A DNA stretch of 64,000 nt from Eledone cirrhosa (Eukaryota). How positions within the stretch are numbered: position 1 is the stretch's first letter; each line of letters starts with the position of its first letter. The notes beneath the pieces are model-generated. The model did no database searches. It saw only the letters and a list, made by a program, of their open reading frames with translations, and was not told the origin of the DNA. Made by a program: the position numbers and the translations under genes. Shown here piece by piece: positions 916 to 62,228 of this stretch. The stretch is from positions 35,092,001-35,156,000 of the forward strand of contig OZ024753.1 in the NCBI GenBank assembly GCA_964016885.1, read 5' to 3'.

Positions 916-1945
916 TTACCAAAAATGAAGATGCCACTGAAAGGCTCTTGCTTTGATAACTGAGAGGATATTACATGAACTGCAACAGTGGAGCTAAGAG
1001 CCGTTCCAGAAGAAGCATTCAAGATGTGATTTGAACAGTGGAAGGATCACTGTGCTAAGTATGTGGAAGGATCATTGGACTGAGTATGTGGAAGGATCAT
1101 TGGGCTGAGTGTGGGGAAGGATCGTTGGGTTAAGTGTGTGGAAGGATCATTGGGTTAAGTGTGTGGAAGGATCACTGTGGTAAGTATGTGGAATGATCGT
1201 TGGGTTAAGTGTGTGGAAGGATAATTGGGTTAAGTGTGTGGAAGGATCACTGTGCTAAGTATGTGGAATGATCGTTGGGTTAAGTGTGTGGAGTGACCAT
1301 TGGGTTAAGTGTGTGGAAGGATCATTGGGTTAAGTGTGTGGAAGGACCATTGGGTTAAGTGTGTGGAAGGATCATTGGGTTAAGTGTGTGGAAGGATCAT
1401 TGGGCTGAGTATGTGGAATGATCGTTGGGTTAGGTGTGGAAGGATCATTGGGCTAAGTGTGTGGAATGATCGTTGGGTTAAGTGTATGGAATGATCGTTG
1501 GGTTAAGTGTGTGGAAGGATCATTGGGTTAAGTGTGTGGAAGGATCGTTGGGCTAAGTGTGTGGAAGGATCGTTGGGCTAAGTATGTGGAAGGATCATTG
1601 GGCTAAGTGTGTGGAATGATCGTTGGGCTGAGTATGTGGAAGGATCATTGGGCTAAGTGTGTGGAAGGATCATTGGGCTAAGTGTGTGGAATGATCGTTG
1701 GGTTAAGTGTGTGGAAGGATCATTGGGCTAAGTGTGTGTGGAAGGATCGTTGGGTTAAGTGTGTGGAAGGATCATTGGGTTAAGTGTGTGGAAGGATCGT
1801 TGGGCTAAGTATGTGGAATGATCATTGGGTTAAGTGTGTGGAGGCACAAGGGACCCACTTCAAAGGGCATTAGCAGTTGAACTTCAGAAAGCATATAAAT
1901 TTTTTCCTCTGCCCCAATTTAAATACTTTTTGACAGGTCTTCTAT
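916..1945 (+). pseudogene. mariner (Tc1/mariner) transposase C-terminal relic with 3' TIR-like end, interrupted by a minisatellite
   Basis: Frame from 916 reads LPKMKMPLKGSCFDN*EDIT*TATVELRAVPEEAFKM*FEQWKD. After the array it reads KCVEAQGTHFKGH*, matching the mariner C-terminal pattern LFPKLK..LKG.RF...W..RW.KCV...G.YFEGD. End atactttttgacaggtcttcta resembles a mariner TIR. Confidence 0.8.
1038..1843 (+). repeat. 25-bp minisatellite, about 32 copies (gtgtgtggaaggatcattgggttaa)
   Basis: Direct inspection: period 25 (e.g. 1311 and 1361 in register), head-to-tail with no spacers. Confidence 0.95.
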
Positions 1946-4614: not shown

Positions 4615-4819
4615 GTGAGTTTATCCGTGAATTTTTTTTTAAACAGGTTTATTCTGTTAAAGCTTCTCAATATTCTCATGATTAAAAAAGAAAAAAAAAG
4701 AAAGGAATTTTAGCTATTCTAAATCTGAATATAATTTTCTTAGCAAGTTCATATCAAGCAGAATATTTAGATACATGTGTGTGTGTGTGTGTGTTTCAGT
4801 ATAACCAAATACTATTTTA

Positions 4820-4960
4820 CACATACATATATATATATGTGTGCATGTATGTATATGTATATACATACTACTGTACGCCTGTATACATATATGTATGTAC
4901 GTATACATACTTATCAGCCGTACTAAGAGTGAGAAATGAAATTTTGTTTCATTCTTTTCC
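4820..4960 (-). mobile_element. fragment of the 423-bp hammerhead-bearing element (its terminal-redundant segment)
   Basis: Reverse complement matches 29268-29400 (tttcatttctcactc.tagtacggctgata...gtatacag.cgtacagtagtatg). Confidence 0.75.
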
Positions 4961-5610
4961 ACTCTTTTACACAGTTTTCTCTGAAAGCAGCATATCCAAG
5001 GAAAATATGGTTTGAGCATTGAAATGGATTTAGCATACCATCTTGAGATATAGACTGACTAACAGAAATGGTAGATTTTGTATATGGCTTCATAGAAGTG
5101 GTTGATAGCTCCTACTACGTAGGTGACTAATTAGCTGTGCAGAATGCTGATCTAACTACATAGTAACTACAATAAAAACAGACTGGAAAAATTTCAAAGA
5201 GCTACTAGTTTTGATGGAAACAATAGGTTTCTTTCTACGAATGAAAGGCCATATGCATGATGCCTGCTTGCAATGTTGATGCTGAAATGATAGGGAGACA
5301 TGAGTAGTGAATGTAGAGAATATGCAAATGTTGGAGAGAAATGAACCGATTTTTGGCTTTGTTACTACAGCTGGATGCCCTTCCTAGTGCCAACTTCATT
5401 TACAGTGAATACTAGGTGCTTTTGTCGTGGCACCTACATGACCACTTTATCTAAAAATATTCCACCATAATTTTATGTAAGAAACATTGATATGTTCCAA
5501 AGACCAGCATAATAAGGAGAAAGTTGATTTGAAATTCTTGATTATTTTGAAAATTATTTGAAAATCATAGGCAGGGTCTTTCATTAGAAATATGATAACG
5601 AAAGGCTTAA

Positions 5611-6479: not shown

Positions 6480-8295
6480 CTAAATCATATATATTTAGTA
6501 CTGATTACTAAAATACTTAATGACCAATTTGAAATGTAAACTACATCTTAAATCTGGCCTGGACTTATCTTTTTTGAGAAGGAGTTGCTACATCTTAGGC
6601 TTGGACCTATGACCAGCTTTGCACAGACCTGAATATCAATAATTTTCATATATATTTAATTGGGTTTTATTATCATATCAAACCTGAAAAATATATATAA
6701 AAGTGATGAGTAAAATAACTATGACGGTTACTGATAAGCTAATGTTTAATAATAGTATCTTACATGTAATTAATAAAATCTTACTTTTATCTTAATTTAG
6801 TTTGTACCGAAAAAAAAACAACTCGTTAATAACTAAAAGTTGAATTCATTATAACTTTCACCTCGTTACTAGAATACTACTTAGGACATTGTAATTATGT
6901 ATCTTAAGAATCTAATCTGGTTATATAAAATAATTTACTTTTATATTTAAAATGATTTCATATATAATCTATTTCTGTCATATATTTTCACATATAATCT
7001 ATTATCAACTAGGACAGTGGATTGGCACTATTAGTAAACCCTTGGAGAAAATGCTTTGTTGTATTTCAAATCATGTTCAAGTCACCTTTGCTTTTCATCC
7101 TTCTGGGGTGGATATAATAAAGCACCAGTTAAATACTGGTTTTATATAATCATCTTCCCCTTCTCCCTAGTTTTATGCCAATGTTGAATAGAATTATTTA
7201 CATTATCAAGGGTTGAACTCATGTTGTTAAAGTCTTAAGTTATAAGTTTAATTCCTTGGTTAGTATATCTAAATATACTCTAGTTTAAGCAGGACAAGTG
7301 ACATACAATTAACTCTGTAATGATTTAGCAGAAAATATTTTCTGCTAAATCATTACAGAAAAACATAGACTTAAACTTACACTCAGTAGGCACCTCTTAA
7401 ACCAATATAACCCCCCCCCCCCCCCCCCACACACACACACCTTCCCCCCACCACTCTTACTCTGTAAAGTTATGTTGGTACCCCAAAAAATCCAGCACAC
7501 ACTGTAAAGTGGTTGTGTAGGAGACACAGCAAAAAGCACCCAGCACACACTGTAAAATGGTTGTGTAGGAGACATGGCAAAAAGCACCCAGCATACTCTG
7601 TAAATGTGGTTGGCATTAGGAAGGCATCTAGCCGTAGAAAACCAGCCAGAAACAGTCCTATACAAGCGAGACATGGTTACCCAACCAAACTTGCCTCAAA
7701 TGGGACAAACCTGTCTAACCCATGCTAGCGTGGAAGGTAGATGTTAAATGATGAAGATGAATATAAAGACTTTAGTTTGACTAAATCAGTTTAATAAGTA
7801 AACATTATCTAATTGCTCAATTCACAAGATTTATTAGTTCACCCACATTGAAAATTGAAAACTTGTTCACCTTTCCATCACTTTAGCCTACATTTGGTGG
7901 CATATCTAAACAGTCTTAGTACGACAAAGACTGAGTTTTGCAACTATAATTATAGTACCCAGTAAATTACTACTGCAGATAAGTTCAGCTACACAAATTA
8001 GAGCATAAAAAACAATTTGTTTTTAAAAGAATTGATAGAAATAACCTCATCAAGATAAGTGTGTTGGCATAGTTTGATTTAAAAATTTTGTGCATTGAAG
8101 TAGATTTATATGTACTTAAAACTATTGAAATTTTCATTGTTAAATCAACTGTCATCTTCAGCCAAAATATTGTACACACTGACTATTTGGATTAGCTATT
8201 CAAATATATCTGTCTATAATCCATCCATGATAAGCTAACATATATTTTCTAAGAAGTTATAGAGTCAGAGTATTTCTTAGCTGACATTCATTTAA

Positions 8296-9458: not shown

Positions 9459-9640
9459 AGGGTGGTGGATTGGCAGTATCGGTAGAGGGTTGGATGCCAT
9501 GCTTTGATGCATAGTTATGGCCCTTTCCATTCTGAGTTCAAATCCCGCCAAGGTTAACTTTGCCTTTCATCCTTATGGGGTCGATAAAACCAGTAATGCA
9601 CTGGATAATTGTTGGCCTTGTGCCAAAAGTAGAAACAATT
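9459..9640 (+). mobile_element. tRNA-derived SINE family B (central gcctttcatcc...ggggtcgataaa...gtaccag, Meta/MESC-like domain)
   Basis: A-box-like tggattggcag, B-box-like gagttcaaatccc, tail gtgccaaaagtagaaacaatt. More than 20 related copies in the window. The domain name is from recall. Confidence 0.8.
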
Positions 9641-9880
9641 AATTATATAATATCATGTTTATCATATATTAATTATATAATATTATATTTATCATATATT
9701 AATTATATTATATTATATTTATCATATTTTAATTATATAATATCATATTTATCATATATTAATTATATTATATTATATTTATCATATTTTAATTATATAA
9801 TATCATATTTATCATATATTAATTATATAATATCATATTTATCATATATTAATTATATAATATCATATCATATATAAATT
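9641..9880. repeat. 30-bp AT-rich minisatellite, about 8 copies
   Basis: aattatataatatcatatttatcatatatt tandem. 1.5 further units lie upstream of the SINE at 9415-9458. Confidence 0.9.
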
Positions 9881-12800
9881 ATATAAGCTATCATATTATT
9901 GCATTTAAATAAATTGACATAAGAAGCTAACTTTACCATTCCATGACCTGGACTAGATCTGAACAAAAAGGGGACATTAGATAGAACTGTTTATAGATCT
10001 GAGGGTGCAAGATTAGTCAGTAATTTTATGTACTTATTTACTTTCATGTTAATCCAAAGACGGTAGTGATAATGGTGATGACAATGATGATGTCGATGAT
10101 GATGATGAAAGTAATTGTGGGAAGTTAAACAGTTGATAAAATAGAAATAATATAAATTACGATAATATTTTAATTGAAATAGCGTATCAATCAATAGATT
10201 TGTTAAATAGATTGAAACAATATATTATATTTCTTCAAATCCTATTTGATTAGAATGCCATAGATGACTGAATCAATAGGATATCAAAGAGGGTTTAATG
10301 ATTTGTATCATCTAATTTGAATTAGCTTTACTGTAAGATTTTCTACTACCTGCATTACTAGTTCTGTTGTAATGTCCTCTGTATTGTATATCATGTTTGT
10401 AGCTGATGATAATGCAGCTATGATAGACATTGTAGATTAATCCTTTGTGTACAATCAATCTTATTAGTATGAGTCTATGCAGGAGCCTCTACATGCTTGC
10501 TTGACTTGCTAGAAATAGTAACCAAGTCTCCCTCAATTCACACGTTACAATTCTTAAAATATGTCATTTTTGATAATGTAGACTGGGATGTACTGAATAA
10601 GGAATGGGAGGGTTGTGGCTGGAATGCTTTTGAGCAGGGATGCAAGGATTCATTTGATCAGAGATCCCCTATGGATAAACAATCTTATAATCTATGTAGT
10701 TACATTTTTGGCATAAATCCATGATTTCAGTATCTTAATAACTATCCATGAAATTCTTACAGCCTTTTCCCCTTTTCATCATTATCATTTCTACATCTTC
10801 TTTTCCATGCTTGCATGGATTAGATAAGTCCTCTCCAGTACAGCATCTTTTCAATTATCTCTTTCCTTTGTCATCCTCTTTGTGAAGTTCTATGAGTACG
10901 TCTGTGATCATCTATCAATACATTGGCTTTTTTCTCTACTTGGAGCTCCTGGCACCTTTTCAGTTCAATATAACATTATTCATCTCTATATTTTTCTTTA
11001 CTCTTCTTATTGGAAAAACTTCAAAGAACAGATCATTTTAAAACTCATCCTTACCTGAATCTCCAGAATAAAAAGTTATAACAAACATAAATAAATATTT
11101 TGGAAAATATAAAACCTCATTTTACTAAATTTGTTATATTTATTTTCAGTCAGTGTACCTTGGACTACACTCTTTAATGTGTCCCTTCTTTTTAAGGATG
11201 GTAGGATGTTATTTAAAGGAAATTTAGCTGTTATTTCCAGTGTAATTGGCTCATTTAGAATTTTGGTATTTGTATATGTTTGTGTAAGGCGGCAAATTGG
11301 CAGAGGTTTTAGAACATCAACTAGAAAGTTTTGTGGTATTCACTCCAGTTCTCTGCTCTCTGATTTTAAATCCTGCTGAAGTCAACTTTGCTTGTCATCC
11401 TTTTGTCTAGTAATGAGGTCAATTCTTTCTCTATATATCTTTCTCACTTCCTCTTTATCTCTCTCTTTCTCTGGAAGAAATCTGCTGTGTTCAGACCTGG
11501 CAAGATGGGCTCTACCAGGTTTTAATATGCCAAAGAAACACTGTATGTTAATAGGGTGCCCCTACAACTCAATCAGGAGTTATGGGTCTAAGAGAAGAGA
11601 GATATTTTTGTGTAGAATAGTAGAAATTTCTTTAGAATAGTAGAAATTTCTTTAGAATAGTAGAAATTTTTATTTTAGTAGTTGTCTTAGTTGGCAATTG
11701 AAATGATTTGGAACTAAAAAATATGGTTTTTAACTGAAAATGAATTTGAAAGAATTGTGCACACTACAAACAAAAATTTATTGACCATTATGGTGGTGAT
11801 TCAAATAGGGATAAAAATTATTTCAGATATTAGCATAATTTAAAAAAAATCTATTGTTTTCAAACTATTTCAAAGCAGATCAATCTTTTCACTTTTGCTT
11901 CATTATTGGAATTTTACATGTATTTTCTAAATACAATGGTAACAATTTTTTTTTTATTGGTAATCTGTATTGATTCAAATATTTCAGTTCTGTAATATCA
12001 CTTTTGGTCCAGATTTGTTTGAATCAATATGAAATATGGTGCCAGATTTTGAAATACTTCATCATTCCATCAAAGATGTTAAAAGCTGAGTATTGCTACC
12101 TCCTATGATGTTTTTTTTAAATTTTTAATTCATTTAATCAGGGGTAGGGGTAGTGTCTTTAATGAATAGGGTCTCCGAGATCGATGGGAAGGAGAAAGGG
12201 ATGAAGGTATCCTCAAATTGGAGATGTGGTCTGAATGTTTTCAACAGCGTACTCTATTAAAGGCAGTCTGGGGTCAGGTGGGGTGAACTAGGAAATAGAT
12301 TAAGTTTATCACCTAAGTAGACCACAGTGAAATTTGAACTCGGAATGCAATGAGCTGAACCAAATAATGTATAAAGATAGTAAAGCCATATGAAAAAATA
12401 TAAATGTAGTTGTGACCAGTTCAAATAGCAGTTTTTAAAAACCTTATGAATGGCTATTCTGAGTTATTGATCACCTCATAGGCTCAATAAAGACAACATT
12501 CTTTAAATTTTTCATATAAAAGAAATCTCTAATAAAATTAATCAGATGTTAGTTTCTAAATTATATTCAAGCTAAATGTACTGGGGGAATTTTCAAAATA
12601 TAAAATCCATGTATAACATGGATTTTATTAACTATAGATAAAGTGGGATGGTAGATATCATGAATTTTATTAGTTATAGATAACAAATATCATGGCTTTT
12701 ATTAGCTATGGATAAGATGGAATGATAGATATCATATCTAGCTCCTATATTCTATTGGTAGGAACAGTTGGTATGGTGGTGAATTGGCAGAGCTGTAAAA

Positions 12801-20772: not shown

Positions 20773-20815
<43 letters not shown>

Positions 20816-20819
20816 TCAA

Positions 20820-21017
20820 TGATATTAAATAAATGGAAACTATATTTATAAAACCATATTTATTCTATTATATATATTTCAAGGGTACCAAAACTTTGGT
20901 ACGCTCTCATCAGATAAAATACAAAGATGAGAGCGTACCAAAGTTTTGGTACCCTTGAAATATATATAATAGAATAAATATGTTTTTATAAATATACTTT
21001 CCATTTATTTAATATCA
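20820..21017. repeat. 92-bp-arm inverted repeat (2 mismatches, 14-nt loop)
   Basis: Arms 20820-20911 and 20926-21017. The right arm continues as unique element sequence to about 21115. Confidence 0.95.
20862..20920 (-). ncRNA. minimal type I hammerhead ribozyme
   Basis: ATTTTAT CTGATGA GAGCGTACCAA AGTT TTGGTACCCTT GAAA TATATA TA^ ATAGAAT: both core boxes, 11-bp stem II with one C.C mismatch, 7-bp stem I, palindromic stem III loop, AUA cleavage triplet. Confidence 0.75.
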
Positions 21018-21359
21018 GTGAATATTATACCCCAGAAAAACTGTCGAGTGCTTTGAATCAGTTATAAACATTTATATTTGTTGAATTACCAACAAATTGA
21101 ATATCCCTTTTGCTTTTATATATATATATACTGTTCAATAAATCCAGATAGCGAATCTAGTGAATCTACTACTTATGTACATACACATACACCCACACAT
21201 CATATATATGCATGGGCTATTATCAGAAATTTTAAGACTCTTTTTCTTCTATATCAAGCATTAAACTACAATGTCATTATTGTATTGTATTAGTCTGTTA
21301 TTTTTCCTTGTTGATATTTCTTATACATATATATATACATATATAATATATATATATAT

Positions 21360-21681
21360 AACGAAGGAAATGTGGTAAGGAACCAGGTGGACCATAACGC
21401 ACCAAAGTACTCAATACTTAGGGTAGTAGAGTGGGTAATAGGAACAAGTAGGACCCCGACGGCTGAGCTCAAGCCGTTTCGACAGCTAATTCTGGACGAA
21501 TTAGCCGTCGAAACGGCTTGAGCTCAGCCGTCGGGGTCCTACTCGTTCCTATATATATATATATATATAGGAACAAGTAGGACCCCGACGGCTGAGCTCA
21601 AGCCGTTTCGACAGCTAATTCTGGACGAATTAGCCGTCGAAACGGCTTGAGCTCAGCCGTCGGGGTCCTACTCGTTCCTAT
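21360..21681. mobile_element. (TA)n-embedded fold-back element (family P) with duplicated 115-bp palindrome
   Basis: Unique arm 21360-21437, palindromes 21438-21552 and 21567-21681 (55-bp arms, loop tggac) joined by (TA)n. Confidence 0.9.
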
Positions 21682-22042
21682 ATATATATATATTTTTTTT
21701 TTATTTCATTACCAAAGGTTTCAAGAAACTAGATGATTCTTGTAAGGAACATCCAGTTCTTGAAACCTTCGGTAATGAAAGAATTATATTGTGTTGTTTG
21801 TTATGTAATGAAATAGCTCTGTAAAATAGATAGAGCACTCTTTTTTCCTTTACCTTTTCTATGGAAATACTTAACACACACACATATATATATATATACA
21901 CATATATGCGTGTGTGAATATATATATATGTATATATGTATATATATATATATATATGTGTGTGTGTATGTATTCATATCTATGTGTGTATCCATATATA
22001 TATATGTGTGTGTGTATGTATACATATCTATGTGTGTATCCA

Positions 22043-28239: not shown

Positions 28240-28370
28240 TATTTTCTGATGAAGGACTAGATTTAGAAACGTTAAGACTCTTTTCCTACTATATCAAGCA
28301 TAAAACTAATAATATATTTCTTCATTGTACTGTATCATTTGCTTTGTTATTTCTGTTTACCTTTTGCATA
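28240..28370 (+). mobile_element. Penelope-like terminal fragment with hammerhead core
   Basis: CTGATGA(28246-28252)-aggactagattta-GAAA(28266-28269)CGTT-aaga. Stem II weak. Downstream part homologous to 21225-21320. Confidence 0.55.
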
Positions 28371-29050: not shown

Positions 29051-29267
29051 TATATATATATATATACATACAACAACACAATAACAAGCATTTTAAGAAC
29101 ATTTCTTCTATTAAAATAAAAGTTAGCTTTGTGGATACCGTAAGAAGCTGAATCATACTCATGGGTCTTTTCTGAGGCAATGTTTTACAGTCAAAAATCC
29201 TTCTAGGAGCCAACACATTTAGTCACTTCTTACGATATGCAGGGATACAGTGTACCTATATATATAT

Positions 29268-29803
29268 AAATGGAAAAAATGAAATTTCATTTCTCACTCC
29301 TAGTACGGCTGATACTTAAATATAAGTATGTATACATACATACATATATGTATACAGACGTACAGTAGTATGTATATACATACATACATGCACACATATA
29401 TATATGTACGTATGGGTTTACCGAACATTTATTATAATGTTCGGTTTGTTTGTAAACAAACAGCCCGAATTACGCCATACAGTGTTCGGCAACCATCGTT
29501 GCTCTTTTGTTCAACACTGACAAAGGAACGATGAACTAGTTTCTAGCTTATTAGCTGTCATCAGCACCGTAAACCTTCCTGTCAGTCGATTGAACATTTG
29601 AAAGTATATACTTTCCTTATGCATATTAACGGCTGAGCAGCCTAATTTGCATATCGAGTGAGTTAGTCGACCGGGCGTACTGAAAACGATAAATGGAAAA
29701 ATATGAAACTTCATTTCTCATCCATAGTACGGCTGATACTTAAATATAAGTATGTATACATACATACATATATGTAAACAGACGTACAGTAGTATGTATA
29801 TAC
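29268..29803 (-). mobile_element. terminally redundant 423-bp unit (about 1.3 copies) carrying a hammerhead: retrozyme / Penelope pLTR-like
   Basis: 29268-29380 repeated at 29691-29803, CpG-rich interior, (TA)n at both ends. Confidence 0.75.
29528..29570 (-). ncRNA. minimal type I hammerhead ribozyme
   Basis: ACGGTG CTGATGA CAGCT AATA AGCTA GAAA CTAG T T^ CATCGT: both core boxes, 6-bp stem I, 4-bp stem II (closing pair C.A non-canonical), palindromic CUAG stem III, GUU triplet. Confidence 0.75.
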
Positions 29804-30190
29804 AAATATATATATATATATCATTACCATCATCACTGTTTAACATCCATTTTCCATGCTTGCATGGGTTAGATGAGTTGTCATGTTGTGAGATTAACCA
29901 GGTCATGTGACCATATCTTGCTTATATAGATCTGTTTTTGGTTTGGTTTCCTACACCTGAATGCCCTTTCTAATGCCAACCACTCTACAGCATGTCCTAG
30001 GAGCTCTTCTTGCGGCACCGCCACTACGACCATACAGGGTGGACGGGGGTCTTTGTTGTGGCACCAGCACTGTAGGAGAGCAAGTACTATATATATATCT
30101 CTATATATATACATAGACATCTCTATCTCTATATATATAAAGATACATATATTATATAATGTATATAATATACATAGTATCCATATATTT

Positions 30191-31943: not shown

Positions 31944-32035
31944 TATCGAGCCCTCTTCACATTTATTATTATTACTATATATATATATATATATATATAT
32001 ACAGTAATAATAATAAATGTGAAGAGGGCTCGATA
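31944..32035. repeat. perfect 33-bp inverted repeat around a (TA)n spacer
   Basis: tatcgagccctcttcacatttattattattact / agtaataataataaatgtgaagagggctcgata. Confidence 0.95.
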
Positions 32036-32875
32036 AGGATTATATATATATAAATATATATAAAAACCAGAGAGCAAATATTTATTAAATATACAGATAT
32101 GGTTCACCTGGTGCCATGACAAAATTTTTCCAGTCCACCCAGTATAGGGCCGATGCCACTATAAAAGCTCCTAGTACACGCTCTAAAATGGTTGGCTTTA
32201 GGAAGGGCATCTGACCATAGAAACTAAGCCAAAAATAGAACATGTGAGCAAGATATAATTATCTGATCTGTTTAGCCTCATAACATGACAGCCTGTCTAA
32301 CCAATGCAAGCATGGAAAAAAAAGAGAATAAATTGTGATGATGAGGATAATATTCAGAGGGATACATGGAAAAAATTGGAGTACCTTGTATAACAGCACC
32401 ACCTTGCTCACGGGTATTTATTTTCACAAAAGCCGCTCTGTAGCAAGTATTTGAACCTGGCTTTCAGCAGAGGGTTAACATGACCTCACAATTCTCTGAC
32501 ATTTTCTAAACTTCCTTGGATGCCAAAAACTAAAATCAAACCCACTGGTTTCCATCTTCTCTCCTATCAATGAACTTTGATCCAATGTAGTAAGCTCCTC
32601 AGTCAGAGGTGCATGTAACACATGAAACTAGTTGAAGAAGAAATTTGAGGATTATGAAAGGTACAGCTTCTGCAAGTCCTGAGGCTGACAACTGTAACAC
32701 TTTTCTTCTGCTTTTATGAGACCCATGACAGTACTTGAGTTTATGACAATAAAATACTTGTTAAATATTCAGTACATTTTCTTCTTGGATCAGTGACATG
32801 TCATAACATGTGGGATATATTTCAATCAATGGGTTATGTATCATGACCAACTATTACACACAGTTGTTGTTGCCT

Positions 32876-39687: not shown

Positions 39688-42600
39688 TTAATGACACAAA
39701 ACCTCTCATTTTAAAGAGTTTATTTTAAAATAAAATCTTCCATCATAATTTCATTTATAAACCTTTGTTAAGTTTATGTTCCAAACACCAACTTAATAAT
39801 GTCAAAATTAGTTATTTTACTTAATCTCTAAATTTTTGGTTATTTCAAAAATTATTTGAAACACATAGAAAGTGTCTTACATTAGAAATTTTGTAACAAA
39901 AAGGTTAAACTGAACTCTTTTTTTTGTTTTGTTTTTTGGAGTGTGATGTGTGTACTATGCTAACATCATTGATATTTAGACACAGCTCTTATTTTTAGGC
40001 TTTGTCTACTAAACACAGCTCTATTGATGCCTGATGAAATAATGGGTGGGTAAGCTCCAATCTAAAATCAGCATATTAGATACATTACCTACATTTCAAT
40101 CTTCATTAATGATATTAATCCTCTAGACCATTGTTTATCTAGCCTTGACTACTAATTTAAATCAGCTTGTAGTTAAAGCATACTAATTATGGATACTGAT
40201 GGAACAAACATTAATTCTGTTAGCATTATATTACCCTCCCCCCCACTCTCTCAACACTCTTACTATTATTACCATCATCAACCCACATTCATAATTTTTA
40301 TAGTTATTTTTAATGTTGGCTTATGCTACGTGCATTTGGAAAATTACTTTTTTTACATATTTCTATAAGCTGGGTCTATCTATTTACATTTTTGCCCAAA
40401 TACTCATTTATCTACTTTTGTCTATATTCTACAATCAGTTGAGAATTTTACAATTTACAACATTTCACCTAATTCTTATACCCTTATTCTCACAATATAT
40501 TCACCCCTTTTTTTGTTAATCCTTAATTGTAACTTATTCACAAATGATTTCAGCAACACTTCTTCTCTTCTTCTTCGACCACTTATTCATGAGAGGGTCG
40601 TGGAGACAATCTTCAAACACTCCTTCCTGAGAGTCCTGTCAAAAGTAAATGTCTCCAACTGGTGACCCCAAGCGTGACCAACCAAGCTCATGGATGTTAT
40701 CATTCTAACCACAGGTACAAATAAATTATTTTTCAGTGTTTCAACAACACTGATAAACAATTTATTTGTATCTGATATGTATCATTTGGAAAGCTTTAAA
40801 ATGTTAGCATTTAACTATACTATTTTAGCATTTAATATTTTCATGTTAGTGGATTGGCAGAATTGGTAGAGCATCAGATAAAGTGACATTGTGGTATTTG
40901 TTCTGGCTCTTTATATTCTGTGTTCAAATCCTTCCAAGGCCAACTTTGCCTTTTATCCTTCTAGGCTTGATAATATAAAGTACTGGGGTTGATTTAATCA
41001 ATTTTGCCCAGCCCCAAAATTTGCTGGCCATGTGGCTAAATTAGAAATCAATATTTTTATGTTTTTCAGATTTGCAAACTTTAGTGTATTTTCTGATCAA
41101 ACAAAGTGTGTTGTGAGGACTCTTCAGTTGTGTCCAAGACATGACAACCTCTTTAGTAACGGTGTCATGATAAAATTCACTCAGGAGAGTGTGGAACCAT
41201 ATATTAATGAAATGTGCTCCATCCCCACCTCCTGGCCTGTCTGGAAGGCTGGTAGCCCCGCTTCAATATTGATGATTCAGTCTGTGAAGACCCACCCAAC
41301 CCTTGCTAGCAGGGAAAATGAACATTAAACGATGATGATGATGATGATATCTTTCTAAGAATATATCATTAAAATTACATGCACCGACAGATATCCAAAC
41401 TCTATGCCTATCTTGATGTGCCTTTCATAATTTGCTGTTACCTTTACTATCTTCATTACTTGGTCTATTAGATTTCATCAGTTACATCCTTTTGTACCAG
41501 TTGAATTTTCTAATTAATTAGGTTAGTAATCAGATCATTTTCTCAATATCTCTAAGTTTATTTGTACCCTAATACTCACAACATTCATCTTCTTGGTTAT
41601 TTGCCATCAATTCCTGCACTTGTACAACCGGTTCCATCAGTCAAACCTACTTGAATTTCTTTATTTATTCCATCATTCTCTTTGTAATAGTTTCTTGTTG
41701 CATTCAATTGTACCATTAAAAAACAACAACTATGCATCAGTTTACTAGTATATCATTAGACAAACTATAGCATTACAAAAGTAAGTTTTCTCACATAAAT
41801 TGCCTTCAAATGGTATCTAATCATAGAAACTCATACAGTTTTTACTCATTATTAACAAAGCTTTTGATGATGCGTGGCATGCAACCTCTTGTTAAATTCT
41901 CTTCTTATGGTTCCTGATCAATATCATATCACCTTAATATGTAGTTTCCTTACATGCCATACTATCATCATCATTATTTAAGGTCTGTTTTCCATGCTTG
42001 CATGGGTCAGACAGGCTGTCATGTACTGAGGTTAGACTGCTCAGGTGACTATGTCTTGCTTGTACATTTCGTATTTAGCTTGGTTTCTACAACTGGAAGC
42101 CCTTCCTAATATCAACTACTTTACAGCATGTACTGTATATATTTATGCAGAACATAGAATATATTAGACTTAAGATAAATTTAATATAGATGTAACTACA
42201 GATTTGTAATTAGCAAAGTGAAAAGCAGAAAGTATCTTTACACTCTCTTCTTTTCACAGCAAAACTATAGTCATATCTATATTAGGTTTATCTTAAGAAA
42301 ACAAATTTAGAGATATAATTATATTAAAAATGGGGTGTATTTTTATCCATGTTTTGACAAGGAGAAAAAATAGCTAAACTCACCACTCAGTGAGGTACAT
42401 CATTTTTTCTTTGTACATATAATACTATCACAAATACAAGCAGCCAAAATGGGGTTCCTCCGAAGGATCTTTGAAATAACATTACTTGATAGAGTACATA
42501 GCTCAGAGATCAGAGAATCACCCCAGGTTGAGTCGCTACATCTCTGAATTGAGAGATCACCGCTCCAATACTATGGACATGTGGTCAGAATGTCTAAAGA

Positions 42601-44102
42601 AAGAATTACTAACTGGTAGGTCAATAAAATAAAGTGCCACTAAAAGTATTGGGGCTGATATAACCAACTTTACCCTCTCCTCAAATTACTGGCCTTGTGC
42701 CTAAATTAGCAATCATTATTTAAGTTATCAACAATAATGCAGATTTGGCCTAATAAAAAAAAACAATTATTTAAAATTCATACCAATTATAATATTGTAT
42801 GAAATAAAGGTGCTTTAGTGATAATCAATGAAATCAATAGATTCTGCATTTAGATTTGACAATCAACTCACCTCACACACAACAAAATAGTTATAATATA
42901 ATAAAGATCCATCAACTTCGGCTGATGCTTATTTAATGAGAACAGTCTCTAAACACAATGATCTTCATAATTTCTGTCTGAGAATTCAGTGGGAGAACAA
43001 ATATTTGTGGAGCCATGACCACTAATGGAGAAACTATTGGCAATTCATATTGCTATAAGCAGTGGTTGTGTAGAATAATAGATAAAATAGTGAAATGATT
43101 AATTTATTTGGCTATTAACAGATCGTTGCCATGGTAGTCTTTGTTTAAACTAATTGTGAAAATACACCAAGTAATTTTATTTTAGAATTCTATGTCACTT
43201 GTTTTTCTAAAATAATCTTCTATGTAAACATGTTCCTTGTGAGTTAATGCTTATAATGTGATCTAAAGTCTTAAGCCCAGATTATTTTATAACATATATT
43301 CTACTAACTGTATTTAAGTTCCAGTTTAATTTAACCTTTCCATTACTCTATTTGTAATGAGAACAGTGGCTATGATTGTCAAATCATTTTGAAAAGGTAA
43401 AATATTTCATTGGAAATGAAATATCTAAAATGATATACTAGAAAGAAAAAATTGTAAAAAAAAACAAAGAAAAGAAAAAATTAAATAGCAAAAGGGAAAA
43501 AGGGAAGTGGGTAAGCAGCAGACTTTACAGCCTAGACTTGGCAGTATGTTTTAGCTGTGCCTTGTAAACAAAATCGCGAAGGCATAGCCACAGAGAAAAA
43601 TAATAAAAATAACTAACTTTATCATTGAGTTGGAGTTTGAAGCATAATTTAACAAATGTTCTTATGTAAAATTATGATAGAAAGTAGATTTTAGATAAAT
43701 AGCAACACTTTAAAATAAGTAGTTTTGTATCACAGAACCATGGGTGGTTTCAAGTGGTCTGGTATCAAAAGGATTAAGTCAAAACATCTGATTTGATGTT
43801 GCTATTACCTCAAGATCACTTCATTTTTCAACTTGTTTAATATTGTTTAAGGATTATTTCACTATTTTTATTGTCTGTCTGAGGAGGAAGCCAGTGGGAT
43901 AGGAAATGGGCATTTAGATAATGTTAGGAATTGTTAAAGTCTACCCCAAATATCAAATGTTTTAATGACATTCTCCCTGCTGTAGCAGGAGTAATCTTGT
44001 GAACCTAATTACAGATTTCATACACATCATGGAGTTCTTTTTAAAGCCTTTTGGTTGCAGGAATCCAAAGTAACTTTTCTACCTGGATACACTCAACTAA
44101 AC

Positions 44103-44247
44103 CAGTCATGGGCAAACTGTGGCATGCTTGGATTTATGAATAACATGCCTAATTTCAAATTTGCCTTAAATTTTATGTATTGCAGCCCACCTTATGATGG
44201 ACCATATCCTATATAGCCCACTGTTAAAAAATAGTTGCCCATGTCTA
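44103..44247. mobile_element. hAT-type MITE
   Basis: Termini cagtcatgggcaaact / agttgcccatgtct resemble Charlie-type hAT TIRs. Confidence 0.55.
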
Positions 44248-44574
44248 ACATGATCACATATATGCATTCACACAAATATGTACACATGCATACAAAAGAA
44301 AGAAAAAAAGGAAAGGCTGATGGGAAACAAAGAGAAGGGAAAAGAGAGAACAGTAGATCATAAATAATTTAATATTAATAAGAAACAATCTAAACTGGTT
44401 TCTCTTTATTGTGTTGAGTTTTTGCCTAGTGAATAACACTAGTCATATGTTGTGGTGTAGGGAAAATAGTTGATCAAACCATCTGCAATATTTAAATAAA
44501 CAATGGGCAGTGGATTAAAAGAATCATTAGTGTGTTGGATAAAATACATTCTAGTATTTATTCCGGCTTTTTAA

Positions 44575-44795
44575 TCCTTTAGCATTTACATAACTCTACG
44601 TTTACTATTATATTTTCATGGTAAAGGCTTTACCTCACATAATTATTTCACATAATATCGAATCTATCAGATTTTGATATTATTTATTTTGAGAACAATA
44701 CCTTAATATCAGTATGAGTGGCTGGTTACAGCCGGTTTGAGCAGAAAGAGGTGAGAGAATTCTCGCCAGATACAGCTGATTTAAATGCTAAAGGG
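44575..44795. mobile_element. piggyBac-type MITE family 1 nested in an old family B SINE (44505-44935)
   Basis: TTAA on both sides. SINE head before, SINE B box and central domain after. Confidence 0.85.
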
Positions 44796-47321
44796 TTAAA
44801 TTTGGAGTTGAAATTCTGTTGAGGTAAATTTTGCCTTTCATTCATCTAGGGTTGATAAAATACAGGACCAGTCAAGTACCACGGTCAACATAATTGACCA
44901 CATTTGAGTTCCTATGCCTATGTTAGAAATCAATATCTTAAATTATCACCATGTAATACTTATTTGTATGATTTGTTTTTCCATATTTCAGGCATTGGAT
45001 TGTGTATTTAATTATGTTTAAAGATATGTCTCTATAACATTCTGCTAATAAATTGCTATTCTGGGCTCCATTCATACAACTTTTACATTGAGTGTATGAA
45101 AAAGAAAAAAATTTTTTCTCCATTTAACAAATAATATTAGCTTTATTCAATTAGGCTCTAAGCCAAATTTGGCCAGGAAATTGAATTTTTATTTTGTTTA
45201 TTTATTTATTTATTTATTCATTTATTTACTGTTTAGTCAGGGAAGGATGAACAGTGGCTATGGCTCTTTTCAGGGCCACTGAGGCAGAGAGGAAGGAGAA
45301 GGTATCCTCAAACTTGAAACTTGATCCAAATAATTGCATCAGGGTGGACTCTACTAAAGACACCCAAGGACCAGACAGCTGTATTAAACTGGGTGTTGGA
45401 TTCAGTGTACTGCCCAAGTAGACTACAGCAAGATTTGAACTCAGAATGCAAAGGGCTGGAACAAATACTGCAAGGCATTTTATCTAGTGCTCTAACAAAT
45501 CTGCCAATCCATTACTTCAGACTTGGACTTTATTGTATCAACCCTGAAATGATAAAAGGCAATGTTCACCTTCATGGGATTTGAACTCAGATTGCAGAGA
45601 GTCACAATAAACAACAAGTGTTTTAAGGCTGTTTTTGCTTCTAAGGCAGGAGGTAGCTTTGCATGCCCCACTATAAGCTTCATATTTATCATGGGGTTCT
45701 TTTTGATGTAATGTTTTAAAGCTTTTCCTGACACCAACTCATTTACTCAACTCTTACAACAGACAGGGATGTGGTGTACCCATTCTAAACTAGATACATA
45801 CAGTCAGGACAAATGCCACAAGGCATTTTGTCTTACACTAAAACTCTGCAAATTTTTACTTTATTTTACTTTATATTATTGACCCCAGAAGGATGAAAGG
45901 GATGGTCAACCTCAGAAAGATTTGAACTCGGGAGACAAAGCACTGTAACTAAATGCTGCTATGATTTTTATCCGACACTCTAATGACTTTGCCAAACCAC
46001 CACCATTGTCTACATTTAATAATGAATTTATACATTTAATAATGAATTAGAATATTTTAAAACCCATATACATCATTTAATTATAATGATTTTCATTTTC
46101 GTGTTTTACTATTAATATGATTTATAATTTAGACTAATCCACTTTAAGTTATAATTAAAATTAATCCTTCTTTAAAACTTTATAAACCACATTTATTATA
46201 TGTTTTTGACCAATCAAATTTTCTGATATATTCCGGTTTCTTTGTTGGTAGCAGCTGGAATACTTTTCATCTGTAATGTTGGGCCCATCACCAGTGATGG
46301 GTGGGGGGATGGGGACACCCTGGAGGGTACTACCACACACTCCCACTTTTAAATGGGTGCATTCTCAGATTTAGAAAATAGAGTTTATAAAAAAAAAATC
46401 TATGAAATATGTTCCTTGAATTAGAATGTCCACCCAGAATACTGTATACTACCCCACCGCCTCCCAGCACCAAAGCCTTGTAATAAGCCTCTTCACTGTA
46501 ATAAACACAGCTTCTCATATCTTGCAGTTATAACAATGGTATAGCTATCACTGTGCAGTTATGAAATTTGCTTTGCAACCTCATGATCTAGGGTTCCATT
46601 CTACTGTATGGCAACTTGGACAGGTGTTTTCTACTATAGTCTTAGGCTGACCAATACTTCATGAGTGAAATTTGGTTGTTAACAACTATGCAGAAGTCTG
46701 TTGTGTGTGTATATGCATGTGTGTGTGTGTGTATATATATACATATATGTGTGATTGTGCATATGTGTATTTATCTCGACATGTGTTTTTGAATTGACAC
46801 TGGTGACATTTGTTTATGTTCTGTATAAATGATATGTTCCACTGCCCAGCAGTTTCACAGGTGATAATTGTTGAAATGCATATCTTAGTTATTTTCAATA
46901 TCATACTTGAGTTGGCATCAGGAAGGGCATCCAGTCATTGATTACTGTGTCAACAAAACCTCATCTAACTCATACCATTATGGAACAGTGAATGTAAAAG
47001 TGATGATGATTGTATTGATAGTAACAATTACAATAGAATTATTATTCTTTTACCTTTTTCAATCAATAGACTGCAGCTATGCTGGAGTTTCACCTTGATT
47101 TAGTCAATTATATCAACATCAGTAGCCCTTTTTTCAAGTCTGGTACTTATTTTATCAATCCCTTTTTTTTGTCGAACTACTAATACACAGGATATAAACA
47201 CAGACAGTCACAAATGTAAAGCCAAACACGAAAACAAGCATATACTTTTTTAACAACACTGCAAATTAGTTTGGCAAGTTTTCACCATAAATATCTTTCT
47301 TTATATACTTATTATCCTTTC

Positions 47322-48700: not shown

Positions 48701-49258
48701 ACACTTTCATCATATATTTATGTATATATATATGTGTGTGTGTGTATATATATATATATTATATATATACAGAGAGAGAAAGAGATAAGGTAAGATAAGC
48801 TACAACTGCTCATCTAGAACAAATAGAACAGACCCATCTATAAGACTGTGTATGCATGTCTACACACATACACAGATATATGTATGTGTGTGTGTATATA
48901 TACATATATATATATGTTATATAAGTAGATACATGCATACATGAAACACCATATGCATACACATATATGTACTAAGTTACATTGCAGATTAAATCGTAAG
49001 TTTTTATGTCAGTTAGTCTATCGAAGGAAAAACCCAGTTTCAGATTTGTAGTAATTTTAGCATTAACATATATCTTTAGTTTCATTTCAGCTTTAAAACA
49101 TTAAGTTAGCAGCCTTTATGAATGACCCATTCTGAGACAATCCAAGTCAGATGACCGGATCTTACTCATTCAGAACTGATTTTGGCTTGGTTTCTATGGC
49201 TGGATGCCCTTCCTAATGCCAATCACATTTACCGTGTGTACTGGGTGCTGTTTGATGT

Positions 49259-49790
49259 GACACCTACATGACCACTTTACAGTGTGGACTGGGTGCTTTT
49301 TGTCATGACACCTACATGACTACTTTACAATATGAACTGGGTGCTTTTTGTCATGACACCTACATGACCACTTTACAATGTAGACTGGGTTATTTTTGTC
49401 ATGACACCTACATGACTACTTTACAGTGTGGACTGGGTTCTTTTTGTCATGACACCTACATGACTACTTTACAGTGTGGACTGGGTGCTTTTTGTCATGA
49501 CACCTACATGACTACTTTACAATGTAGACTGGGTTCTTTTTGTCATGACACCTACATGACTACTTTACATTGTAGACTGGGTTCTTTTTGTCATGACACC
49601 TACATGACCACTTTACAGTGTGGACTGGGTGCTTTTTGTCATGACACCTACATGACTACTTTACAATGTGAACTGGGTGCTTATTGTCATGACACCTACA
49701 TGACTACTTTACATTGTAGACTGGGTGCTTTTTGTTGTGACACCTACATGACCACATTACAGTGTGGACTGTGCGCTTATTGTCATGGCT
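49259..49790. repeat. 48-bp minisatellite (11 units) expanded inside a family A SINE
   Basis: gacacctacatgactactttacagtgtggactgggtgctttttgtcat. 1-3 units of the same motif occur in other family A copies (5400, 7490, 28820). Confidence 0.95.
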
Positions 49791-52498: not shown

Positions 52499-52766
52499 CC
52501 GGGAGCTTCCAACAGAAATGGTCGCATTCTTTAAGGGTATGTCAATATTTATTTATAAAACTGATCTATATTATATTTTATCTGATGAAAGCACACCATA
52601 ATTTAACTTGGTGTCCTTTAAATATGTATGAAATAAATATGGTTTTATAAATATAGTTTCCATTTGTTAATATATCGTTTTTTACTCCAATAATTTGTTG
52701 AGTGCTTTATATCAGTTATAAAAATATTTGCTTGTTGTAACCCAACAATTTAAATAGAACTTCTAC
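52499..52766 (+). mobile_element. relative of the 20820 element with mutated hammerhead (52575-52635)
   Basis: attttat CTGATGA AAGCACACCA taatttaact TGGTGTCCTT TAAA (GAAA to TAAA). Downstream sequence aligns with 20970-21100. Confidence 0.75.
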
Positions 52767-52822
<56 letters not shown>

Positions 52823-62156: not shown

Positions 62157-62228
62157 GATGTGTTGGTGTAAATGGTAGCACAGTGGTCCGAATAACCAAA
62201 AATGTGGGTTCAACTCCCATGTACGTCA
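62157..62228 (+). tRNA. tRNA-like cloverleaf (pseudo-tRNA, nominal anticodon GAA)
   Basis: Acceptor gatgtgt/gtacgtc, D arm gtgt/gcac with A box TGGTGTAAATGG, anticodon arm tggt/acca (loop ccGAAta, non-canonical C33 and U37), T arm gtggg-TTCAACT-cccat. T5 at 62238-62242. Confidence 0.6.

What the first reader, a model, noticed from the sequence alone, without database searches (positions are those of the whole stretch)
29268..29803. Retrozyme-like unit: 423-bp terminally redundant repeat with a minimal hammerhead, inserted in (TA)n
Seen: about 113 bp direct terminal redundancy (period 423), (TA)n flanks, no ORF, and on the minus strand ACGGUG-CUGAUGA-CAGCU-AAUA-AGCUA-GAAA-CUAG-UU^CAUCGU. A dispersed fragment lies at 4820-4960. 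Established: minimal type I hammerheads with a palindromic stem III occur in Penelope-like element termini and in metazoan non-LTR retrozymes, work as dimers, and give small circular RNAs. Inference: a cephalopod retrozyme or non-autonomous PLE family, with the partial tandem arising by reverse transcription around a circular or multimeric RNA.
Basis: partly seen in the sequence, partly recalled or inferred. Interest (0 to 1): 0.8.

Follow-up and report, generated by a model that had tools for sequence, protein, structure and literature searches.

The report
Worn solo copy of hammerhead retrozyme
This is one slightly worn copy of an abundant 423-base, protein-free repeat that carries a conserved motif for a predicted self-cutting RNA; it is likely a new family of a known kind of animal jumping element (retrozymes), probably pasted into the genome by enzymes borrowed from Penelope-type retrotransposons.

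Summary
In detail: a 113-114-bp terminal redundancy (110/116 identical), (TA)n flanks, no gene, a fragment at 4819-4961, and a type I hammerhead on the minus strand (0 of 20,000 shuffles give one). Thousands of related records lie in runs of two organisms. Within the core, the displayed variants fall at N7, H17 and the 10.1/11.1 mismatch, and one helix I pair switches among G-U, U-G and A-U. Two corrections: the ribozyme has canonical retrozyme geometry, not the Penelope 'minimal' form, and this copy has one ribozyme, so it cannot itself yield a unit-length circle. It is most likely a dead-end, 1.27-unit insertion of a non-LTR retrozyme, copied by a Penelope-type reverse transcriptase starting at an internal site about 265 nt downstream of the cut site. 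A circle or an uncut multimer as template is not decided. Cleavage, expression and the partner element are untested, and the host taxon was not verified. The scan noted similar arrays before (16 notes seen, 12 in this genome, one with a 422-nt unit). I found no cephalopod retrozyme in print. Verdict: new member of a known kind.

The parts
29268..29690 (-). One full 423-bp unit (RNA sense inferred to be the minus strand); 36% G+C; strongly self-paired
   Evidence: fold z -8.4 on the minus strand and -8.9 on the plus strand, so the z-score does not pick the strand
29691..29804 (-). Partial second unit (113-114 bp), the 5' part of the insertion in RNA sense; repeats the unit's 3' end
   Evidence: 110/116 identical to 29266-29380; five of its differences are private, since 86-100% of laid records carry the other letter
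29528..29570 (-). Canonical type I hammerhead: helix I 6 bp, core CUGAUGA, C10.1/A11.1 mismatch, helix II 4 bp with 4-nt loop, GAAA, palindromic 6-nt helix III, GUU triplet; predicted cut 29534/29533
   Evidence: family variation
29508..29596 (-). Extended helix I: a 3-nt/1-nt internal loop (loop 1) followed by about 19 further pairs enclosing the ribozyme
   Evidence: constrained fold -27.5 kcal/mol; z -3.8, 1 of 200 shuffles as stable
29600..29652 (-). Possible promoter-like stretch upstream of the ribozyme: octamer ATGCAAAT at 29652-29645 and a TATA-centred palindrome at about 29601-29616 (weak lead)
   Evidence: sequence; 9 octamers in the whole window; depth peaks near it in X1 and X4; the palindrome varies in X4
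29266..29276 (-). 3' end of the insertion in RNA sense (TTTCCATTTAT); inferred start of reverse transcription, about 265 nt downstream of the cut site
   Evidence: the fragment at 4819-4961 ends within a few bases of the same point; the same 11-mer lies near the ends of a second hammerhead element at 20839 and 20998
29323..29417 (.). Internal microsatellite-like TACA/TA tract, part of the unit; both 5' ends seen in the window fall in it
   Evidence: skipped by the read-laying tool
29257..29268 (.). Left (TA)6 flank, candidate target-site duplication
   Evidence: cannot be told from a pre-existing microsatellite
29807..29821 (.). Right TA run, candidate target-site duplication
4819..4961 (+). 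5'-truncated copy holding only the unit's 3' 140 bp (RNA sense on the plus strand), between 13-bp direct repeats with one mismatch (4811-4823 and 4961-4973)
   Evidence: 155 of 3000 random flank pairs give such a non-simple match in the same loose search boxes

Best explanation
This is a dispersed 1.27-unit copy of an abundant 423-bp non-coding repeat with a conserved canonical type I hammerhead motif, likely a non-LTR retrozyme that was probably inserted by a Penelope-type reverse transcriptase/endonuclease acting in trans. Inferred cycle: (1) tandem copies elsewhere are transcribed on the ribozyme strand; (2) ribozymes, probably paired as dimers through the palindromic helix III, cut the transcript into units that a host ligase would close into circles; (3) the Penelope protein nicks AT-rich DNA and starts cDNA at an internal site about 265 nt downstream of the cut site; (4) it copies through the intact cut site, once round the unit and 113 nt more, which leaves the terminal redundancy, while early stops leave 3' fragments such as 4819-4961. 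I put a circle as the template at about 55% and an uncut linear multimer at about 35%. This copy has one ribozyme and several private changes, so it is probably a dead end. Shown: anatomy, abundance, conservation pattern, continuity across the cut site and across the unit junction. Inferred or untested: every step of the cycle.
For: Motif far above chance: 0 of 20,000 shuffles. Abundance: 5,805 contigs in X1 and 34,898 reads in X18 (organism A), 4,055 contigs in X4 (organism B). Between 29528 and 29570 the rows shown fall only at N7 (U>C, 63% in X19), H17 (U>A, 88% in X19, giving GUA, a triplet of natural hammerheads, PMC1636495), 10.1 and 11.1 (both to U, 91% and 92% in X19; a U-U mismatch there is described for axolotl HHR_Amex2, PMC7229834), loop 2 (29550) and one helix I pair. 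That pair, 29567/29531, is G-U here, A-U in 78% of X4 depth, and changes on both sides at matching frequency in X19 (43% and 42%, giving U-G). The by-kind totals exclude a hidden change of 10% or more for 8 of the 11 invariant core positions in at least one run. In X4 depth peaks over the core (108,000-154,000 at 29531-29562 against 40,000-46,000 at 29571-29618). Read depth is flat across the cut site in X19 (6533, 6566, 6618), so copies are not bounded by it, as expected from internal initiation in a Penelope enzyme (PMC11167929). Other copies run through the 29690/29691 junction (depth and loose ends). Both window copies share the 3' end, differ at the 5' end and have candidate 12-13-bp duplications. 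Unit size, low G+C and lack of LTR signals fit the retrozyme definition (PMC7229834).
Against: Only 40 of 109 and 40 of 53 variant rows were shown; G5, G8 and G12 cannot be cleared in any run. Records had to be 80% alike, RAD reads sample copies unevenly, and the matching frequencies are not read-level linkage. In X1 depth dips over the ribozyme instead of peaking. The fixed 3' end rests on two copies: no loose-end cluster at 29691-29694 appears among the 22 of 483 rows shown, and depth falls four- to eight-fold past 29700 in X4 and X19, which may be indels or may be real copy ends. No tandem array and no autonomous partner could be seen (no genome held). The monomeric active fold lies about 8 kcal/mol above the best fold, and the unconstrained two-copy fold did not form the dimer ribozyme. 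In vitro a Penelope enzyme used uncut RNA and did not need ribozyme cleavage (PMC11167929), and 8 of 9 Xenopus retrozyme dimers showed no cleavage (bioRxiv 10.64898/2026.07.22.740005). The duplication around the fragment is only modestly above chance (155 of 3000).
Confidence: 0.78

Rival explanations
1. It is the pseudo-LTR of an autonomous Penelope-like element, or an internally deleted derivative of one, left as a partial tandem. The ribozyme belongs to the parent, and there is no self-propagating small RNA.
For: Partial tandems, (TA)n targets and 5' truncation are Penelope traits (PMC8557442, PMC11167929). Xenopus retrozymes resemble pLTRs (bioRxiv 10.64898/2026.07.22.740005). An 11-mer at the 3' end is shared with a min-hammerhead element in the window (99 of 20,000 shuffles, noticed after the fact).
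Against: The ribozyme has canonical, not pLTR-type minimal, geometry (PMC4209133). The unit closes on itself with no coding remnant, and the junction recurs in both organisms. No RT or GIY-YIG match in 114 window frames.
Confidence: 0.12
2. It is a DNA-level mobile repeat (Helitron-like, MITE-like or a satellite monomer) that happens to hold a hammerhead-like string.
For: It has an internal microsatellite-like tract, several hairpins and a TA flank; Rfam gives no hammerhead match.
Against: 0 of 20,000 shuffles give the motif; variation follows hammerhead rules; no inverted self-match of the unit at E 0.001 with the low-complexity filter on; candidate 12-13-bp duplications and a truncation pattern typical of retrotransposition.
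Confidence: 0.04
3. It is a miniature LTR element (TRIM-like) whose 110-bp direct repeats are true LTRs.
For: The repeats can be read as starting with TG (29271, 29694) and ending with CA (29379-80, 29803-04), and a short purine-rich run precedes the second repeat.
Against: The dispersed fragment runs about 37 bp past the supposed LTR end, so it is not a solo LTR. No primer-binding site follows either repeat on inspection. The candidate duplication is 12-13 bp, not 4-6. The ribozyme is type I and lies between the repeats, whereas plant LTR retrozymes carry type III ribozymes inside the LTRs (PMC7229834).
Confidence: 0.04

Closest known systems
Metazoan non-LTR retrozymes (Cervera and de la Pena 2020, PMC7229834: coral, mussel Mytilus 350-390 bp, axolotl 330/350 bp; seen: passages and parts 2-4 of 6, supplement unreadable)
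   Same: Unit of 150-450 bp, G+C below 50%, one canonical type I hammerhead per unit, no LTR signals, no protein, highly self-paired RNA, thousands of copies. Helix III (one pair plus palindromic tetraloop) is like HHR_Amex1; the mismatch at the base of helix II is like HHR_Amex2.
   Different: This locus is a dispersed 1.27-unit copy, not an array. Two ribozyme forms coexist (C-A mismatch with GUU; U-U mismatch with GUA). Expression, circles and cleavage are untested. No octopus or cephalopod mention in the main text.
Retrozyme 'monomers' of Li, Clavereau and Pollet 2026 (bioRxiv 10.64898/2026.07.22.740005; seen: parts 1-3 of 5, supplements not seen)
   Same: Solo, near-full-length offspring of tandem families, proposed to be non-autonomous derivatives of Penelope-like elements.
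   Different: That survey covers 31 vertebrates, 3 insects and a coral, no mollusc. Their 'active' criterion (two ribozyme-bearing units) is not met here. Their pLTR homology test could not be run.
Endonuclease-bearing Penelope-like elements and their min-hammerheads (PMC4209133, parts 1-2 of 4; PMC8557442, passages; PMC11167929, parts 1-2 of 4)
   Same: Partial tandem (pseudo-LTR) layout, AT-rich or (TA)n targets, ends that lie downstream of the ribozyme and not at its cut site.
   Different: No RT/GIY-YIG frame; the ribozyme is canonical (helix I 6 bp, helix II 4 bp), not min-HHR (helix II 7-8 bp, helix I 4-5 bp, extra base before helix II); no inverted second arm at this locus.

Membership tests
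Metazoan non-LTR retrozyme | Canonical type I hammerhead, conserved in the family | tested here: met
   G5, G8 and G12 not fully cleared because of hidden rows
Metazoan non-LTR retrozyme | Unit 150-450 bp, G+C below 50%, no protein | tested here: met
   423 bp, 36% G+C, longest stop-free frame 75 aa
Metazoan non-LTR retrozyme | No LTR, primer-binding site or polypurine tract | tested here: met
   by inspection; the fragment overruns the repeat end; a short purine-rich run precedes the second repeat
Metazoan non-LTR retrozyme | Family occurs as tandem dimers to multimers | tested here: inconclusive
Metazoan non-LTR retrozyme | 'Active' copy: at least two consecutive ribozyme-bearing units (Li et al. 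2026) | tested here: not met
   one ribozyme at this locus; this makes the copy a monomer, a class that survey includes
Metazoan non-LTR retrozyme | Target duplication longer than 4 bp when present | tested here: inconclusive
   12 bp of TA at the main copy; 13 bp with one mismatch at the fragment, 155 of 3000 by chance in loose boxes
Metazoan non-LTR retrozyme | Self-cleavage and expression as linear and circular RNA | not testable with these tools
   bench work needed; no RNA run was listed
Penelope-like element (autonomous) | RT plus GIY-YIG open reading frame | tested here: not met
Penelope-like element (autonomous) | min-hammerhead geometry in the terminal repeat | tested here: not met
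   canonical geometry (against PMC4209133)
Penelope-mobilised element | Partial tandem, with ends downstream of the ribozyme and not at its cut site | tested here: met
Penelope-mobilised element | Two fixed 3' ends (the 'tail') | tested here: inconclusive
   one end shared by two window copies; a second cluster of 36+31 contigs before 29617/29618 in X4 only; no cluster at 29691-29694 among 22 of 483 rows shown
Penelope-mobilised element | Homology to the pLTR of an autonomous element | not testable with these tools
   no assembly; only an 11-mer shared with a min-hammerhead element
Helitron / MITE (features recalled, not from a call) | Helitron TC...CTRR ends without duplication, or terminal inverted repeats | tested here: not met
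   ends; no inverted self-match

The most novel reading that the evidence does not exclude
A cephalopod retrozyme family with thousands of copies carries its own snRNA-type promoter (octamer plus TATA-like box), although a review states that retrozymes seem to lack promoters (PMC7761336). It also shares a short 3' end signal with a Penelope terminal repeat in the same window, marking where the borrowed reverse transcriptase starts on an RNA circle before running more than once round it. The family would then give a direct test of rolling reverse transcription of a retrozyme circle by a Penelope enzyme.
Probability: 0.22. Interest if true: 0.72.

Novelty: new member of a known kind. Interest (0 to 1): 0.42.

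Why it matters
Retrozymes are described in corals, mussels and vertebrates, and their mobilisation by Penelope-like elements from RNA circles is proposed but not shown in the papers read (PMC7229834, PMC4209133, bioRxiv 10.64898/2026.07.22.740005). An abundant family in what is probably an octopus extends the range and gives many insertion ends from which the start of reverse transcription can be mapped. Three library searches and term counts in three papers showed no cephalopod retrozyme; the 2026 Octopus vulgaris repeat annotation never mentions ribozymes in its main text. The two natural ribozyme forms, each with a mismatch where G-C is usual, are ready test cases for hammerhead chemistry. 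This particular copy is among the least informative members: old, single-ribozyme, probably inert.

Tried and rejected
Whole genome: none held, so arrays, permuted ends and partner elements could not be searched. Rfam: no hammerhead family matched (150 of 331 rows shown; 5 of 5); the microRNA-like hits are below threshold and come from TA-rich hairpins. Repeat finder on the whole window was swamped by microsatellites; the tandem finder did not list the unit. Pattern scan of metagenome contigs: 0 matches. Sequencing runs: no RNA holder listed. Read ends and loose ends at 29468-29471, 29621 and 29644-29647 in the RAD runs were set aside as probable restriction-site artefacts (AATT sites at or near them; my inference). 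Summed contig depth was not used as a copy number. The loose descriptor hit at 28246 (+) has only a 4-bp helix I and 3-bp helix II and was set aside as chance. Fold z-scores do not identify the strand. Pfam on 114 window frames gave only sub-threshold hits, so neither a partner RT nor the host taxon was found. A search for the promoter of newt satellite 2 returned no paper that I opened, so that comparison is not used. The supplement of PMC7229834 could not be read and those of the bioRxiv preprint are closed; either could list a cephalopod. Earlier-findings look-ups by sequence, relatives and nearby place returned nothing.

Full report
1. Observation. The sequence is as described. 29266-29380 matches 29689-29804 at 110 of 116 bases, with an offset of 423 to 424. 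TA runs lie at 29257-29268 and 29807-29821. The minus strand carries the quoted hammerhead at 29570-29528, with the predicted cut between 29534 and 29533. A type I descriptor found it, and matched 0 of 20,000 dinucleotide shuffles of the unit and 0.01 sites per shuffled window. The unit has no stop-free frame over 75 aa even when read as a circle. None of 114 window frames gave a Pfam match above threshold. A fragment at 4819-4961 is inverted and 86% identical. Rfam's hammerhead models did not match.

2. The ribozyme. Helix I has 6 pairs, helix II has 4, and helix III is a perfect 6-nt palindrome, i.e. one pair closing a palindromic tetraloop. Beyond helix I a 3-nt/1-nt internal loop and about 19 more pairs enclose the ribozyme (z -3.8). 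The monomeric active fold is about 8 kcal/mol above the best fold, and the palindrome can pair with itself at -4.8 kcal/mol. That fits dimer action as described for axolotl HHR_Amex1 (PMC7229834), but an unconstrained two-copy fold did not produce the dimer ribozyme, so this stays an inference.

3. The family. No genome was held, so I laid 6 of 20 listed runs on the unit. Organism A gave 5,805 contigs (X1) and 34,898 reads (X18); organism B gave 4,055 contigs (X4). Within 29528-29570 the rows shown fall at N7, H17, 10.1, 11.1, loop 2 and one helix I pair. In X19, N7 is C in 63%, H17 is A in 88%, and 10.1 and 11.1 are both U in 91% and 92%. In X4 these stay as in the window: C-A mismatch and GUU. 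So the window's mismatch is a subfamily trait, not decay. A U-U mismatch at this place is described for HHR_Amex2, and GUA precedes the cut in some natural hammerheads (PMC1636495, passages). The pair 29567/29531 is G-U in the window and A-U in 78% of X4 depth; in X19 both sides change at 43% and 42%, giving U-G. Limits: 40 of 109 and 40 of 53 rows were shown. The by-kind totals exclude a hidden change of 10% or more for 8 of 11 invariant core positions in at least one run, but not for G5, G8 or G12. Depth peaks over the core in X4 and dips there in X1. Frequencies are per site, not linked on reads, and RAD reads sample copies unevenly.

4. This copy is worn. At 29572 in loop 1, 98-100% of laid records carry A where the window has U. 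At 29670, 29681, 29702, 29709, 29721, 29722 and 29724, 85-100% carry another letter in all three runs. With a single ribozyme its transcript can be cut once at most, so it cannot give a unit-length circle. By the criterion of Li et al. (bioRxiv 10.64898/2026.07.22.740005, parts 1-3 of 5 read) it is a monomer, not an active locus.

5. Ends. In ribozyme sense the insertion and the fragment stop within a few bases of the same point (29268-29271), about 265 nt downstream of the cut site, and their 5' ends differ (29804 and about 29417), both inside the TA-rich tract. The fragment lies between 13-bp repeats with one mismatch; 155 of 3000 random flank pairs give such a match in equally loose boxes, so this is modest. 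Read depth is flat across the cut site in X19, and other copies run through the 29690/29691 junction. This agrees with the one Penelope protein studied in vitro, which cuts AT-rich DNA and starts cDNA at two internal sites downstream of its ribozyme, on uncut RNA (PMC11167929, parts 1-2 of 4). Against a simple picture: no loose-end cluster at 29691-29694 is among the 22 of 483 rows shown; many records leave the reference at 29699-29709 (86+36 contigs in X4, 1,280 reads in X19) and depth falls four- to eight-fold there. That may reflect indels in a short repeated run, or copies with only 20-35 bp of redundancy. A second cluster of ends before 29617/29618 (36+31 contigs, X4 only) may be a second start site. 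These points are unresolved.

6. A second hammerhead element. The same scan found a true min-type hammerhead at 20866-20921 (minus), with a long helix II. It sits in an inverted pair whose arms point outward, one short and one about 95 bp longer, ending in TA runs; a decayed copy lies at 52571-52774 with changed but still complementary helix II letters. This is the layout drawn for Penelope insertions (PMC8557442, passages). Its 3' region shares the 11-mer TTTCCATTTAT with the 3' end of the 423-bp unit; 99 of 20,000 shuffles and 4 of 1,079 real tiles share an 11-mer with the unit's last 30 nt. I noticed this after the fact and the ends are not in the same register, so it is a lead only.

7. 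Mechanism. Best reading (0.78): a non-LTR retrozyme offspring. Tandem source copies would be transcribed, cut by the ribozyme and closed by a host ligase, as shown for coral, mussel and axolotl (PMC7229834, parts 2-4 of 6). A Penelope-type protein would nick AT-rich DNA, start at the internal site and copy 423+113 nt through an intact cut site. A circle (about 55%) and an uncut linear multimer (about 35%) both explain that length; these odds are my judgement. That five differences of the partial repeat are private to it fits one template but also a uniform multimer. Rivals: a terminal repeat or deleted derivative of an autonomous Penelope element (0.12), a DNA element with a chance motif (0.04), a miniature LTR element (0.04).

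8. Known and new. It works like, and on the tested features belongs with, metazoan non-LTR retrozymes; tandem organisation, cleavage and circles were not testable. It is not an autonomous Penelope element. Searches and term counts in PMC7229834, PMC13282606 (part 1 of 3 read) and PMC7761336 showed no cephalopod retrozyme, but most subscription papers and two supplements were out of reach. The host taxon is not verified here; earlier AI notes on the same genome call it octopus. The scan already holds many such notes: 16 were shown, 12 from this genome, including a two-armed array of a 422-nt unit, and solo copies from other genomes. I could not test whether that 422-nt unit is this family. My reading was set down before those look-ups; the notes agree with it but are not independent support.

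9. Verdict. Real, well supported as a ribozyme-bearing repeat family, and a new member of a known kind. Interest 0.42. The boldest reading left open, a self-promoted circle copied round by a Penelope enzyme from a shared end signal, has probability about 0.22 and would deserve about 0.72.

Noticed in passing
window 20810-21121 and 52571-52774: A second, unrelated hammerhead of the Penelope min-type (20866-20921, minus) in an outward-pointing inverted pair with one short and one long 3' end, set in TA runs; a decayed copy at 52571-52774 has changed but complementary helix II letters. It shares an 11-mer near its 3' end with the 423-bp unit.
   Followed up: partly
window 29600-29652: Octamer motif and TATA-centred palindrome upstream of the ribozyme; depth peaks near the octamer in X1 and X4. 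Possible snRNA-type promoter; weak, since the window holds 9 octamers.
   Followed up: partly
window 29699-29725: Many records in all runs leave the reference here, with low-agreement continuations after a short repeated run; indels or frequent 5' ends of copies with short redundancy.
   Followed up: no
window 21438-21693: Two identical head-to-tail copies (period 129) of a nearly perfect fold-back element bounded by TA runs; MITE-like and very young.
   Followed up: no
window 31947-32036: Fold-back element with a (TA)13 centre, beside a (TA)25 run.
   Followed up: no
window 62157-62228: tRNA-like match above Rfam's gathering score (42.3 bits) between TA-rich arrays; possibly the head of a tRNA-derived SINE.
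   Followed up: no
window 1038-1842, 9638-9897, 49228-49787: Minisatellites of period 25, 30 and 48; a related 48-bp unit also at 7492-7612.
   Followed up: no
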